DNA of 64,000 nt, from positions 129,766,001 to 129,830,000 of the forward strand of contig NC_091980.1 in assembly GCF_044704955.1 (NCBI RefSeq), in the 5' to 3' direction. The number at the start of each line of letters is the position of its first letter. Position 1 is the stretch's first letter. The notes beneath the pieces were generated by a model, which saw nothing but the letters and a program-made list of their open reading frames with translations, had not been told where the DNA came from and made no database searches. The translations under genes and the position numbers were made by a program. Below, in pieces: positions 1,547 through 64,000 of this stretch. Source of the DNA: Pristiophorus japonicus (taxonomy: Eukaryota).

Positions 1547-4500
1547 ATGGCTTCTCAAGTGCGTCAGAACTATCACCAGGACTGTGAGGATGCTGTCAAT
1601 AAGCAGATCAACATGGAGCTCAATTCCTCCTATTTTTATCTCTCTATGGTGAGTTTTGTGATTTTTGTCACTTCACAATGGAGACTGTGTAATGTCAATT
1701 TATGAAATCCTGTGCTGTACCCAAACCACCTTTTTCTATCTGCACACCCCCTTCAATTTATGTCGTTAATTCATTGTAAAGCTACAATATAATACAATTT
1801 ATCTTCCTGTGAATTCATTAACAAACTCTCTCTGTTCCTTGCAGTAGCTGAATCATCATCATCTGATTATCTTTAAACATTTTCCTGGGCTCTTTAGCTT
1901 GATCAAGTTTATTTGGAATAAATTCTACACTCAATGTGAGGAATTCAGAATTTGTATCCTCATTCTAAATCATTCCATGGACTTTCCTTACATTGCTGGT
2001 TGAATGGGTGATGTCATAAAAATACAGCTGGGCCATTTAGGAGGGAAGTCAGGAAGTATTCTTTCCCACAAGTGTGGTGGAAATCTGAAACCCTTTCTTT
2101 CCCAGCCATCCCTCGCCTCCACAGGGGGAGGATGGGAAGAAAGTGTTACAAATGTTTCTGCTTCCCTCCTGTTCCTAGTGTTTCTAACCTCTGAATTTTA
2201 AACACCAGTTTGTATCCCTCTGTCTTTCCTCCAACTTTAACCACCAATAAAACAAAAAAAGTTAATCATCAATTGTCTGTGCTCAGCAGCCTCTCCTTTA
2301 ACCCCTCTGCTTTCCTACCCTGCGACCTTCACAAGCACCTTAAATTCTGAGAGGTTCTCATAACTTTTATTCTGTGGTCTCTGGTTCTCCTCTACAATGC
2401 TTTGATTTGTGTAGACTGTGCCAAATTAATGCTGCCTGTGGTAGTTTTAGTTCCTTGGCATGAATGTAGCCAGTAAAATTCAGCTGGTTTTTCTCCTTTT
2501 TTGTATGTTATGAATACTACACTATGATTAGATCTCCAGTTTCGGAAGCTGCTTTGACTTCCAATACTGCCCCTCAACTAGCCTATACAAAATATATTTG
2601 GGTCAATCTACAATGATTATTGGAATGTGCTACTGGTGACCAGTGTATAAATTTTGTGGCAATTCCTTCACTAATTTCCAGAGCTACAATGAATATTGGG
2701 TGCCAAGATTAATGTTCCAGTTTTGAGCATGTTCAATCAAAGCTGAATTGGTGATCATGGAATGATGCAGTACAGGAGGCCATTCAGTCCATTGTGCCTT
2801 GCTGAATGTTGGGTGAAGCGATACAACTCCATGTGTTCCCATAGCCTGCAAATTTGTGCAAATCAGTAAGAGGATGAGACTGGGGAATTAGTAATGGGGC
2901 ACATAAAGATGGCAGAAAATCTGAACAAATATTTTGTATCTGTCTATGGTAGAGGACAGTAACAACATTCCAATGGTGGATTGTCAAGGGGCTATGGGGT
3001 GGGGGGGGGGATGCGGGGGAGGAAGTTAATACAATCTCAATCACCTAAGGAGGTAGTACTTAGTAAGATAATGGGGCTAAAGGCAGATACATTTCCTGGA
3101 CCTGATGGCTTGCATCCTAGAGTCTTAAGAGAAGTAGCGGCAGGAATTGTGGATGCATTAGTTGTAATTATCCAAAATTCCCTGGATTCTGGGGTGGTCC
3201 CAGCAGATTGGAAAACTGCAAATATAATGCCCCTATTTTAAAAAAGGAGGCAGACAAAAAGCAGGAAACTATAGACCAGTTGGCCTAATGTCTGTGATTG
3301 GGAAAATGTTGGAGTCCATTATTAAAGTAGCAGGACATTTGGGAAAAGCAAAATTTGATCATAAATCCATGTTGACTCTGCCTGAAGGGGAAGTTGTGTT
3401 TGGCAAATTTGCTGGAATTCTTTTGAGGATGTAACGAACAGGGTGGATAGAGGGGAACCAGTGGCTGGTGTATTTAGACTTCCAGAAGGCATTTGACAAG
3501 GTGCCACATAAAAGATTGCTGCACAATGTAAAAGTTCATGGGCTTTGGGGGTAATATATTAGCATGAATAGAGGATTGGCTAAGGAACCGATTCGGGATA
3601 AATGGTTCATTCTCTAGTTGGCAACTAGTAACTAGTAGTGTTGCAGGGGATCAGTGCTGGGACCCCAACTATTTACAATCTATATTACACCCAGTTCCTT
3701 CTTCCAAGTTAGTAACATAGCCTAGTTTGCTGTTCCTCCCAGCTTTTTCATCAGTCACATGTGAGGAGGACACACAATTCTGCAAAAGGACATAAGCAGG
3801 CTGTGAGTGGGCAAATTTTTGACTGTTGGAAAGGGAGTTCATGCACTTTGGCAGAAAAAAAATCTAAGAGCAGATCTTTATTTAAAAGGATAAAAATGAA
3901 ATTCAGAAGAATGAGGTGATCTTATTGGAATGTATAAGCTTGAGGGGGTTGACTGAGTGCATGTAGAGAGGATGTTTCCACTGATGTGGGAGACTAGAAC
4001 TAGAGGGCATGATCTTAGAATAAGGGGCTGCCCATTTAAAACTGAGATGAGAAATTTCTTGAGGTTTGTCAATCTGGAATTTATTGCCTCAGAGCTGTGG
4101 AAGCTGAGACATTGAATAAATTTAAGCCTGAAATAGTCAGTTTCTTAAATGACAAGGGGTTATGGGGGAGCGGGCGGGGAAGTGGAGAAGAGTCCATCAT
4201 CAGATCAGCCATGATCTTGAATAACTGAGCAGGCTCGAGGGGCCGTATGGCCTACTCCTGTTCTTGTGAAGTTTCCCTATTGCTGGAGGTGAGATTATCC
4301 ACTGTCTTTGCCAGGTTAGTTGAGTAGGTGTTAGTTTCCATAACTATGTACATACAAGTTCAGTGAGAGACAGCCCTTGAAAGGAAGAAAAATGAGTGGC
4401 TTCTTGTACAATGTCTGAGGATGGGTCTGCCATACAATAATCAACTACTCTTCTCTCTCCATAGTCCTTCTACTTTGACCGGGATGATGTTGCCCTGCGT

Positions 4501-5833
4501 CACTTTGCTGAGTTCTTCAAGGAGCAGTCACATGAGGAACGTGAGCATGCTGAGAAACTGATGGAATTCCAGAATCGGCGAGGAGGACGGATCATCTTGT
4601 CTGATATCAAGGTTTGGCTCAATATACAAGTGGCCTTCTGTCTGGCTCCCCTTAGACTGATTGGAACCAACTGCTTTAGAATGTATTGGGAACAATTTGC
4701 AGCACAGGAACCAGCCATTTGGACAAACTGGACTATGCCGGTGATCAGGCTCCAGACATTGTCCTCCCACCTTGCTTTATCAAGCAACATATCCTTCTAT
4801 TCCTTTTTCCCTCATGTACTTATTTAGCTTCCCCTTAAATACATCTGATATTCACCATCAATGTGACACCAGTGATTGATGGCTTAATGCAGTCATTCTA
4901 TGTTCTAACACATTGGTTCATGGTAACCTAGACTTCTGATTGCATTTTTTTCATCCCTAATTTCCTTCAATACTGTCCTGTTTCCAAACCTGTTTACTAG
5001 TTGTACTATTACATATGTGCCACTAGAGGGCACTGCAGTCAGATTGTAGATTACCTGTACAGGTATGCCAGGCCAAGTATAACAGGCAGGCCACCATGTG
5101 TGATCCTCACACGAATTGCATTAAATGGACTAAGGTCACTACAATACATTGCCTTGTGGAGTCATTATCAGAACATCTGAAGGCATAAAAAATACTTGTT
5201 TGTTTCATCCATTGTAAAGGAACTGTGACTTTCCTCTTCAGAAACCAGAGCAGGATGAGTGGAGCAATGGTCTGGAGGCCATGCAGAGAGCTCTGCAGAT
5301 GGAGAAGAATGTGAACCAGAGTCTGCTGGATCTGCACAAACTCTCCACTGAGAGCACTGACCCTCATGTAAGTTCCTAATGCTTCAATGTGGGCTTTTGG
5401 GTAAGTTGCTGTCCTTGAACTTAATTTTAAAAGATCTCCATGCCCAATAGCTTTGTGTTGGGTCTATTTTTGGGGGGAGATATTGTACATGTGTCTGATC
5501 CCAGCACCCTTTTGTACAGCAAGTTTTCATCTAAATGATGCAGTAATTCCATCAATTTCAATTGCACCACTTAACTATCCTCCAATCCAAGAGGATTAAA
5601 ATCCAAACTCCAGGGGTAACCTCCAATGTTCCTTGATATCTGCTACTGTCATAACTCATTTCCATTTTCTCCTTCAGTTGTGTGACTTCCTGGAGGCCCA
5701 CTACTTGGATGAACAAGTGAAGATGATCAAGAAGCTTGGGGATCACATCACCAACCTGAAGAAACTGGGAGCCCCTGAGAATGGCCTAGGAGAGTACTTG
5801 TTTGACAAGCACACCCTGGGGGAGAGTGACTGA
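1547..5833 (+). CDS. fth1-like: Ferritin heavy/middle-type subunit, copy g1 (intact, 176 aa)
   Basis: Exons 1547-1648, 4465-4611, 5242-5367, 5678-5833 (102/147/126/156 nt), all GT-AG phase 0, the classic vertebrate ferritin layout. Protein [176 protein letters not shown]. Equivalents of human H E27,Y34,E61,E62,H65,E107,Q141 are present. AATAAA at 5903-5908. Confidence 0.95.
2870..4265 (+). mobile_element. CR1 LINE remnants in g1 intron 1
   Basis: [14 protein letters not shown]...[11 protein letters not shown] (ORF 2981), [15 protein letters not shown] and QGSVLGP motifs, CR1 3'UTR ending ggcctactcctgttc. Confidence 0.85.
5002..5190. mobile_element. Solo-LTR-like insertion in g1 intron 2
   Basis: About 190 nt absent from intron 2 of g2-g5; contains GCCACTAGAGGGCAC and TATA-like/ATTAAA signals. 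Boundaries approximate. Confidence 0.45.
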
Positions 5834-6369
5834 AGCTTCTGACCAGTACTCGTGTGTGGTGTGTGGGTGTCCTGGGCTCTTGATGTGAAATGTAATTAAC
5901 TAAATAAACTGTTCAACATTGGACTGGGTTTTGTCTCCTTGCAAGTTTGAGTGGTTGCTTATTTTCCATTTACCATAACTTGTTTGCAGCACAAGTATTG
6001 CACTCAGCTATGCAACAGTCATACATTGGTTACAGCCCGGGAGGCCATTCAGCCCATCAAACCTGTGCTGGCTTGCCAAGAGCACTTCAGCTAGTCCTAT
6101 TCCCCTGCACTTTCCCTGTAGCACAGCAATTTTTATTCTTTCAGCTACTTGTCCAATTCCACGATTGAATCTGCCTCCACCACCCTCTCAGGCAGTGCAG
6201 TCCAGACACTAAGCACTCACTGCATAAAAGTTTTTCCTCATGTCCGCTGTGGTTCTTCTGTCAATCACCTTAAATCTGTGTCTGCTGGTTCTCAACCCTT
6301 CTGCCAGTGGGAACAGTCCTAATAATTTTTCTCTTTTTGCTGGGTTAATTTTAATATTTATATTCATAA

Positions 6370-63774: not shown

Positions 63775-63994
63775 CTCTGATTGGCTCTGGGCCTCAACCT
63801 CCAGCCCCTAAACCCCCTCTCCTTTGTTAATTGGTGCTTGGATTCAAGGGAGATTCCTGATTGGCTATCAGGGATTGTCAATCATCATTGGTGATGTCAT
63901 TCCGTGTGTGAATGCAGGCTGCCCCAGTAGTATAAATACAGGTGCATGTGAGAGAAAGGATTAGTTCTTGAATTGTGCAGTAATATAGATAGTC
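63775..63994 (+). promoter_or_regulatory. Type-B promoter of a sixth ferritin copy (g6)
   Basis: ATTGG at 63780, 63830, 63860, 63887; TGATGTCA; TATAAATA 63931-63938; aligns with the g3/g4 promoters. Confidence 0.75.
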
Positions 63995-64000
63995 ATGATG
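63995..64000 (+). CDS. Probable start (ATG ATG) of ferritin copy g6, cut by the window edge
   Basis: tatagatagtcATGATG matches g4 tatagatagtgATGATGgcctcc; the coding status of g6 cannot be seen. Confidence 0.6.

What the first reader, a model, noticed from the sequence alone, without database searches (positions are those of the whole stretch)
1547..64000. Tandem ferritin array under birth-and-death evolution (at least 6 copies, 2 intact and 3 disabled)
Seen: five full 4-exon ferritin models and the start of a sixth, all on the + strand; only g1 and g4 have open frames, and the lesions in g2, g3 and g5 are independent. Known: mammals have single intron-containing FTH1 and FTL genes, and their extra copies are mostly retrocopies. 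Inference: a rapidly turning-over, intron-containing ferritin family that probably extends beyond the window and is dosage- or tissue-specialised (e.g. oocyte/yolk or immune iron sequestration).
Basis: partly seen in the sequence, partly recalled or inferred. Interest (0 to 1): 0.7.

Follow-up and report, generated by a model that had tools for sequence, protein, structure and literature searches.

The report
Piece of shark ferritin gene cluster
This is one stretch of the already-published shark cluster of dozens of iron-storage (ferritin) genes, and the copies here lack the usual iron switch and look built to be made in bulk, most likely in egg cells.

Summary
The array is real: five four-exon ferritin genes plus the promoter and start codon of a sixth. 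g1 and g4 are intact, g3 and g5 carry two stops each, and g2 is probably but not certainly dead. g4 equals an annotated sawshark protein. Two Greenland-shark genome papers already report this shark-wide cluster, one with ovary-specific expression, so the expansion is known.

Added here:
- The copies keep all seven ferroxidase ligands, lack an iron-responsive element, and have CCAAT-rich TATA promoters.
- They form their own shark-and-ray clade, apart from FTH1. Orthology to teleost fth1b is rejected; a tie to the L-chain lineage is weakly favoured.
- A second expanded family on the same chromosomes has the L-type K62 change.
- Exons stay alike across two promoter classes whose first introns do not align, and copies group by species. 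This points to gene conversion as well as birth-and-death.

Most likely role: dosage-driven iron storage in oocytes. Expression of these copies is not shown. The scan's index held no earlier ferritin note.

The parts
1547..5833 (+). g1, intact ferritin gene (exons 1547-1648, 4465-4611, 5242-5367, 5678-5833; 176 aa), promoter class A
   Evidence: best stored relative P0161 at 97%; all 7 ferroxidase ligands
1374..1470 (+). g1 core promoter: inverted CCAAT boxes at 1374 and 1403, altered TATA (TGTAAATA) at 1463; no IRE
9929..13421 (+). g2, probably disabled: 2-nt loss at the start of exon 4 (exons 9929-10030, 12236-12382, 12784-12909, 13268-13421); weak alternative donor after 12926 would keep the frame; class A
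9758..9855 (+). g2 core promoter: inverted CCAAT at 9758 and 9789, altered TATA (TGTAAAGA) at 9848
16908..19437 (+). g3, pseudogene (stops at codons 29, 59); chimera with class B promoter and intron 1 but the 3' flank of g2/g5; poly(A) signal altered
16718..16826 (+). g3 core promoter: three inverted CCAAT boxes and TATA at 16819
22761..27300 (+). g4, intact ferritin gene (exons 22761-22862, 26178-26324, 26679-26804, 27145-27300; 176 aa), class B; product identical to P0175
   Evidence: relatives' contigs join across its predicted introns 2 and 3
22536..22691 (+). g4 core promoter: inverted CCAAT at 22536, 22583, 22640, a one-off box at 22613, TATA at 22684; matched by contigs from two coded organisms
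49205..54474 (+). g5, pseudogene (stops at codons 76, 172), class A; exons 49205-49306, 53055-53201, 53605-53730, 54319-54474
49034..49131 (+). g5 core promoter: inverted CCAAT at 49034 and 49065, TATA at 49124
63780..64000 (+). g6: class B promoter (four inverted CCAAT boxes, TATA at 63931), 5' UTR and ATG only; coding part lies beyond the window
6618..16583 (+). higher-order duplication unit (spacer, g2, spacer, g3 promoter), copy 1; matches 46042-63973 in pieces at about 73-88%
   Evidence: self-BLAST
46042..64000 (+). higher-order duplication unit, copy 2 (spacer, g5, spacer with a gypsy-type relic at about 58.0-60.6 kb on the minus strand, g6 promoter)
27531..46041 (.). ferritin-free gap holding LINE and LTR-retrotransposon relics
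   Evidence: no ferritin exon by tBLASTn; RVT_1 and RT_RNaseH hits in some ORFs

Best explanation
The window is a 64-kb piece of the shark ferritin cluster, very likely from the sawshark Pristiophorus japonicus or a very close relative. The genes encode cytosolic, ferroxidase-type ferritin subunits of a shark-and-ray lineage separate from FTH1. Shown: intact catalytic and channel residues, purifying selection, no IRE, CCAAT/TATA promoters, duplication units, a chimeric copy, and exons alike across unlike flanks. Inferred: (1) output is set by transcription and gene dose, not by IRP/IRE iron sensing; (2) the main site is the growing oocyte, where the protein stores and detoxifies iron for a very large egg; (3) the subunits may co-assemble with the co-clustered K62 (L-like) family; (4) unequal crossing-over adds and removes copies, exon-limited gene conversion keeps them alike, and some die before removal.
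For: g4 is identical to P0175, and g2 matches P0194 apart from the junction. Ten clusters of relatives hold 696 records; 149 of the 150 listed are from sharks. Ligands E27 Y34 E61 E62 H65 E107 Q141 (human H numbering, set recalled) are present in g1 and g4 and in 146 of 169 full-length relatives. dN/dS is 0.19-0.33 in 10 of 10 pairs. There is no Rfam IRE hit at E<=5 and no IRE loop near any of the 6 starts. 16 ATTGG boxes lie within 170 nt upstream of the 6 TATA boxes against 1.8 expected; the copies are related, so this is about two independent promoter types. Ovary-specific expression of the homologous cluster is reported in bioRxiv 10.1101/2024.09.09.611499. Intron 1 aligns over 22 nt or less between classes while exons are 86-99% identical. 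g2/g4 synonymous difference is 0.076 against 0.198 in introns 2 and 3, p=0.0015. 82 of 82 sawshark-group rows and 31 of 31 Heptranchias rows have their nearest neighbour in the same species.
Against: No expression evidence exists for these copies, and g1 has an altered TATA box. PMC13214024 reports transcripts of some copies in fin and blood, so the family is not strictly ovarian. The ovary evidence is one sentence in one preprint on another species, and shark ovary samples include the lymphomyeloid epigonal organ (PMC5568229). CCAAT boxes are common in many promoters (own knowledge). For introns 2 and 3, only 1 of 6 between-class pairs shows a significant synonymous deficit, and GC3 of 0.64-0.68 leaves codon selection open. 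Two of the 82 rows are trivial identical pairs, and clusters were sampled by similarity.
Confidence: 0.6

Rival explanations
1. Somatic protection against iron-driven lipid peroxidation (ferroptosis), linked to PUFA-rich tissues and longevity, as proposed for the Greenland shark.
For: PMC13214024 proposes this and finds some copies transcribed in fin and blood. A 14-copy tandem ferritin lowers ROS in cells in the hadal snailfish study (PMC10746142). The catalytic centre is intact.
Against: The expansion is shark-wide (13 species). The sawshark, not mentioned in that paper's text or five supplements, has at least 77 full-length records against the paper's 59. The paper itself notes high copy numbers in shorter-lived sharks. 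Sharks keep a separate fth1a on another chromosome.
Confidence: 0.15
2. Classical birth-and-death with functional divergence: copies evolve independently and specialise by tissue or task.
For: Two or three of five copies are disabled by separate lesions. Two old promoter classes exist. Within-species protein identity averages only 91%.
Against: Exons are as alike between classes as within them, while intron 1 and distal promoters do not align. g3 is a recombinant. No one-to-one orthologues appear between distant sharks. Iron ligands are nearly invariant.
Confidence: 0.15
3. Immune iron withholding by epigonal or blood leukocytes; the 'ovary' signal comes from the epigonal organ around the shark ovary.
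For: Ovary transcriptomes of sharks contain immune genes for this anatomical reason (PMC5568229). Some copies are transcribed in blood.
Against: No sequence feature found here points to immune control. The near-invariant proteins show no sign of diversifying selection.
Confidence: 0.07
4. Mostly neutral amplification in a recombination-prone, repeat-rich region, with only a few copies needed.
For: High pseudogene share in this window (2-3 of 5) and heavy retroelement fill.
Against: dN/dS about 0.25. Clusters are kept in both major shark lineages, and over 85% of copies are reported full-length in the Greenland shark.
Confidence: 0.05

Closest known systems
Greenland shark and white shark ferritin clusters (Sahm et al., bioRxiv 10.1101/2024.09.09.611499; first quarter of the text and keyword passages read)
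   Same: Large tandem ferritin clusters in sharks (155 'FTL' and 179 'FTH1' copies, largest cluster 222 copies in about 4 Mb), conserved in position, ovary-specific expression.
   Different: In the passages read, that paper gives no phylogeny, promoter, IRE or conversion analysis and calls the duplications ancient. Here the cluster looks old but its copies group by species. That the window is homologous to that cluster is inferred; their sequences were not in hand.
Shark 'FTH1b' expansion (Yang et al., PNAS 2026, PMC13214024; keyword passages of text and five supplements read, figures not seen)
   Same: Shark-wide increase in copy number, 59 copies in two tandem clusters on one chromosome, fewer in rays and elephant fish, some truncated copies.
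   Different: The family does not group with the one teleost fth1b record tested (AU p=0.0103), so the name looks misleading. The paper argues for ferroptosis and longevity and does not mention the ovary.
Automatic NCBI/UniRef models 'ferritin heavy chain B-like / oocyte isoform-like / higher subunit-like' in 13 sharks and one sawfish
   Same: Same clade; g4 is identical to UniRef100_UPI00398EEC20 (P0175).
   Different: The names are best-hit labels and mix several clades; one model keeps g2 open through a weak donor.
Vertebrate ferritin H chain (human FTH1, PDB 4oyn and others)
   Same: Aligns end to end, E=1.5e-89; same ferroxidase and three-fold channel residues.
   Different: Different clade and chromosome from the shark's own fth1a; no IRE; many copies.
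Hadal snailfish fthl27 array (PMC10746142, passages read) and mammalian FTHL17/FTHL loci (PMC5363321, passages read)
   Same: Tandem or repeated ferritin copies; germ-line expression and concerted evolution in the mammalian case.
   Different: Far fewer copies and presumably independent origins; human FTHL17 lacks ferroxidase activity.

Membership tests
Eukaryotic ferritin (PF00210) | Ferritin domain, about 175 aa four-helix subunit | tested here: met
   Exon 2 alone scores 45.2 bits against a cut-off of 24.5; close relative P0007 aligns end to end with human H chain.
H-type (ferroxidase) subunit, by function | E27, Y34, E61, E62, H65, E107, Q141 (set recalled) | tested here: met
   All present in g1 and g4 and in 146 of 169 full-length relatives.
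H-type (ferroxidase) subunit, by function | Measured ferroxidase activity and 24-mer assembly | not testable with these tools
   Needs recombinant protein.
FTH1 orthologues | Nested in the FTH1 clade, at the FTH1 locus | tested here: not met
   The H clade, with skate and chimaera FTH1, has 96-100 support and excludes the array. Shark fth1a records lie on other, larger sequences. A sister position to the whole H clade is not rejected (AU 0.36 and 0.40), nor is array plus cartilaginous-fish FTH1 (AU 0.157).
Teleost fth1b | One clade with teleost fth1b | tested here: not met
   AU p=0.0103 with one smelt record named fth1b, LG+G4 quick tree.
L chain (FTL) | Loss of the ferroxidase centre (K62) | tested here: not met
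   The array has E62; tetrapod L has K62 in 10 of 10 rows. A second shark family has K62 in 17 of 17.
L chain (FTL) | Common descent with tetrapod L | tested here: inconclusive
   Array, shark K62 family and L group together in the two trees that include the K62 family (88/65 and 84, unstarred). Without that family the free trees did not show it, though the constrained tree scored 2.1 lnL higher. Only 1 exclusively shared residue, the same count as with H.
IRE-regulated vertebrate ferritin mRNAs | 5' UTR iron-responsive element | tested here: not met
   No Rfam IRE match at E<=5 in 64 kb; no C-N5-CAGWGH between TATA and ATG in 6 of 6 copies. Transcript starts are inferred from the TATA boxes, not mapped.
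Shark ovary-expressed ferritin cluster (Sahm 2024; Yang 2026) | Dozens of tandem copies on one chromosome | tested here: met
   Six tandem copies in the window; 77 full-length sawshark records of the clade; relatives mostly share one contig length per species. The sawshark records carry no position.
Shark ovary-expressed ferritin cluster (Sahm 2024; Yang 2026) | Ovary-specific expression | not testable with these tools
   Runs are coded and carry no tissue.
Secreted yolk ferritins (as in snails and insects; recalled) | N-terminal signal peptide | tested here: not met
   The proteins begin directly with the ferritin core; judged by eye, no predictor run.
Birth-and-death multigene family | Pseudogenes and new duplicates under purifying selection | tested here: met
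Birth-and-death multigene family | Copies evolve independently, without homogenisation | tested here: not met
   Exons 86-99% alike across unalignable intron 1; g3 is chimeric. The synonymous test on introns 2 and 3 is significant in only 1 of 6 between-class pairs.

The most novel reading that the evidence does not exclude
Sharks have built an oocyte ferritin factory from the L-chain side of the family. It has two co-amplified, co-located gene sets, one catalytic (E62, this window) and one non-catalytic (K62), an H/L-like division of labour evolved apart from FTH1. The catalytic set is free of IRE control, driven by CCAAT/TATA promoters and homogenised like histone or rRNA arrays. The expansion would then be a trait of egg provisioning, not of longevity, and the names FTH1 and FTH1b in print would be wrong for it.
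Probability: 0.35. Interest if true: 0.65.

Novelty: new member of a known kind. Interest (0 to 1): 0.4.

Why it matters
The cluster itself is published, so the finding as flagged is not new. The added detail bears on a current claim that links the shark 'FTH1b' expansion to ferroptosis and extreme lifespan. A sawshark with at least as many annotated copies, IRE-free promoters and reported ovary-specific expression point instead to iron loading of eggs. That makes an open question directly testable: how very large, yolky shark eggs take up and detoxify iron. The trees also suggest that sharks and rays have at least five ferritin lineages, which bears on where the L chain came from.

Tried and rejected
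1. No whole genome is held for this window, so flanks, total copy number and neighbouring genes could not be read.
2. Expression: no RNA holder listed; the best runs held at most 0.17 of the words. Four runs guessed to be RNA were laid on g4 at 85% likeness. Their contigs join across the predicted intron 2 (X1, X2, X9) and intron 3 (X2), but they are relatives or paralogues, so they say nothing on g1 or g4. Contig depth was not used as a level.
3. The FCH domain in fused models P0001 and P0066 looked like a neighbouring gene. It is a cross-hit, since ferritin exon 2 itself hits PF00611.
4. I first thought the preprint's 'FTL' and 'FTH1' copies were one mislabelled clade. I dropped this when a second expanded K62 family appeared.
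5. Direct orthology of the array to FTL: not established. One of four free trees without the K62 family placed L with holostean M chains.
6. IRE-like stems elsewhere in the window (9 hits with 4 or 5 of 5 pairs) are all outside the 5' UTRs.
7. 3' UTR control elements: one CPE-like motif in four of five copies and no consistent Pumilio site; too weak to use.
8. Assembly artefact: rejected.
9. Literature searches listed no paper on IRE loss, promoters, gene conversion or phylogeny of the shark cluster beyond the two genome papers. Most were seen as listings only, the library lacks most subscription papers, and the PNAS paper was reached through a reference list. The preprint's supplements and the PNAS figures (tree, copy numbers per species) were not seen and may bear on the naming claim.
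10. No fold or complex prediction was run; any would pass by likeness to solved ferritins.
11. Rows left out of trees: 17 of 66, 23 of 66, 24 of 66 (5 added), 4 more (2 added), all for run time. One search kept 192 of 260 listed records (165-200 aa with a clade motif), plus 5 window genes and 3 outgroup rows.
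Full report
1. Observation. Self-comparison and exon searches show five complete ferritin genes on the + strand, each with exons of 102, 147, 126 and 156 nt and GT..AG introns. g1 and g4 are open (176 aa). g3 (codons 29, 59) and g5 (codons 76, 172) carry private stops. g2 lacks 2 nt at the start of exon 4 and stops after 126 aa if spliced normally. A public model keeps it open by a weaker donor 17 nt into intron 3, and another paralogue has the same junction. The sixth copy is a promoter, a short UTR and an ATG at the window's last three bases. 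No further ferritin exon lies between 27.5 and 46 kb; some ORFs there hit retroelement domains.

2. Identity and range. A search with g4 exon 4 gave 457 hits, of which 120 were listed; the best are shark ferritins, led by Pristiophorus japonicus. g4 is identical to P0175, and g2 matches P0194 apart from the junction, so the window very likely comes from this sawshark. Ten clusters held 696 records. Of the 150 listed, 149 are from sharks and one is a Salmonella-labelled fragment. Thirteen shark species appear across. Within a species most records share one longest-contig length, which I read as one chromosome. Only one ray record of the clade turned up (sawfish P0389); the listings are capped, so this is weak.

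3. Already in print. The Greenland-shark preprint (bioRxiv 10.1101/2024.09.09.611499; first quarter and keyword passages read) reports 155 'FTL' and 179 'FTH1' copies, clusters syntenic with the white shark, and ovary-specific expression. The PNAS paper (PMC13214024; passages and supplement searches, figures not seen) reports 59 'FTH1b' copies in two tandem clusters, higher numbers in sharks than in rays, transcripts of some copies in fin and blood, and a ferroptosis-longevity hypothesis. That the window belongs to the same cluster is inferred from family and arrangement.

4. Protein. All seven ferroxidase ligands (set and numbering recalled) and the channel residues H118, C130, D131 and E134 are present in g1 and g4. 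146 of 169 full-length relatives keep all seven ligands. dN/dS is 0.19-0.33 in all ten pairs, including those with pseudogenes, so the lesions are recent or the exons are being overwritten. There is no leader, so the product should be cytosolic (inference).

5. Lineage. In every tree but one the array, with the sawfish record, is a strongly supported clade (99-100), outside the FTH1 clade and outside tetrapod L; one search gave the same branch at 99.9/100 in its unrooted form. Sharks keep a separate fth1a on a different, larger sequence, for example 198.8 Mb against 27.7 Mb in Scyliorhinus canicula. Grouping with the one teleost fth1b record is rejected (AU 0.0103). A second expanded shark family lies on the same sequences (P0391 cluster, 43 records) and has the L-type K62 in 17 of 17 rows. 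It groups with tetrapod L at 81/83, and the array joins them at 88/65 or 84. These values are below the starred level, a sister position to H is not rejected (AU 0.36 and 0.40), and trees without the K62 family did not show the grouping. The L-side origin is a lead, not a result. The K62 family is probably what the preprint counts as 'FTL' (inference).

6. Regulation. Rfam finds no IRE in the window. None of the six copies has an IRE loop between TATA box and start codon, a distance of only 67-89 nt. Each promoter has two to four inverted CCAAT boxes: 16 in all against 1.8 expected, though from only about two independent promoter types. Contigs from two coded organisms align to the g4 promoter at about 88%. 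None of their listed differences breaks a box, and one restores g4's imperfect box; 15 of 22 and 10 of 14 substitutions were listed, so this is incomplete. CTGATTGG is the Y-box recalled from frog oocyte promoters (memory; the one search gave listings only). g1 and g2 have altered TATA boxes, so g4 is the best candidate for an active gene.

7. How the array evolves. Two promoter/intron-1 classes exist: A (g1, g2, g5) and B (g3, g4, g6). Between classes intron 1 aligns over at most 22 nt, yet exons are 86-99% identical; g2 and g4 differ at only 2, 2 and 1 synonymous codons in exons 1-3. Their synonymous difference (0.076) is well below that of introns 2 and 3 (0.198, p=0.0015), but the other five between-class pairs are not significant. 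g3 has the promoter and intron 1 of g4 (93% over 381 nt) and the 3' flank of g2 and g5 (83-88% over about 570-610 nt), as expected from unequal crossing-over within a gene. The block spacer-g2-g3 promoter is repeated as spacer-g5-g6 promoter. In a tree of 200 rows, 82 of 82 sawshark-group and 31 of 31 Heptranchias rows have their closest match in the same species; closely related carpet sharks and catsharks intermix. The cluster is old and its members are young or homogenised. Both turnover and conversion operate.

8. Mechanism. Best reading (0.6): many near-identical, IRE-free genes supply bulk cytosolic ferroxidase-type ferritin to growing oocytes, perhaps in mixed shells with the K62 subunits. 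The sequence features are shown. Tissue rests on one preprint in another species, and co-assembly is pure inference. Somatic protection against ferroptosis, true specialisation of copies, immune iron withholding and neutral amplification are the rivals.

9. Verdict. The finding is real and belongs to a published shark feature: a new member of a known kind, interest 0.4. The lineage, promoter, IRE and conversion results did not appear in the passages I read and are worth passing on to anyone testing the longevity claim. The scan's own index held no finding on this family.

Noticed in passing
proteins P0062, P0084, P0270, P0272-P0277, P0281, P0283, P0286: Sharks and rays have an apparently single-copy ferritin clade (99-100 support) with a 26-62 residue Arg-rich, nearly acid-free N-terminal extension, on the same sequences as the array. 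It is a candidate mitochondrial ferritin, apart from the FTH1 clade. No targeting predictor was run.
   Followed up: partly
proteins P0391 cluster, P0386, P0398: Second expanded shark ferritin family with K62, Q119, T125 and L173, grouping weakly with tetrapod L chains. No copy lies in this window.
   Followed up: partly
protein P0095: A catshark gene model fuses a fibronectin-repeat receptor tyrosine phosphatase to array-type ferritin exons, which suggests such a gene (PTPRH-like, my reading) borders the cluster.
   Followed up: no
window 40085-40678 and 39813-40223, minus strand: Two overlapping stop-free frames (197 and 136 aa) near LTR-retrotransposon relics. The first has a hydrophobic start and several cysteines, no Pfam hit, and only weak atlas scores (0.80 at best, beta-trefoil-like). 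Possibly a decayed retroelement accessory gene.
   Followed up: partly
window 26322 to 27143 (run X1): One contig joins exon 2 directly to exon 4 at GT..AG, an in-frame skip of exon 3. Single contig, 24 letters on the short side.
   Followed up: no
window 58046-60569 (minus), 43921-45289 (plus), about 37.1-38.5 kb (plus): Broken gypsy-type LTR retrotransposon relics (protease, RT, RNase H and integrase pieces); the third was recognised by eye only.
   Followed up: partly
window 8310-8641 and 47693-47856: 33-bp tandem repeat upstream of g2 (10 units) and g5 (5 units), duplicated with the higher-order unit.
   Followed up: no
proteins P0234 and P0322: Vertebrate-type ferritins filed under Salmonella and Yersinia on very short contigs; probably contamination of those records.
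   Followed up: no
window 35555-35574: 20-nt exact match to ferritin exon 2 in the gap, with no other ferritin sequence around it; chance or a tiny remnant.
   Followed up: no
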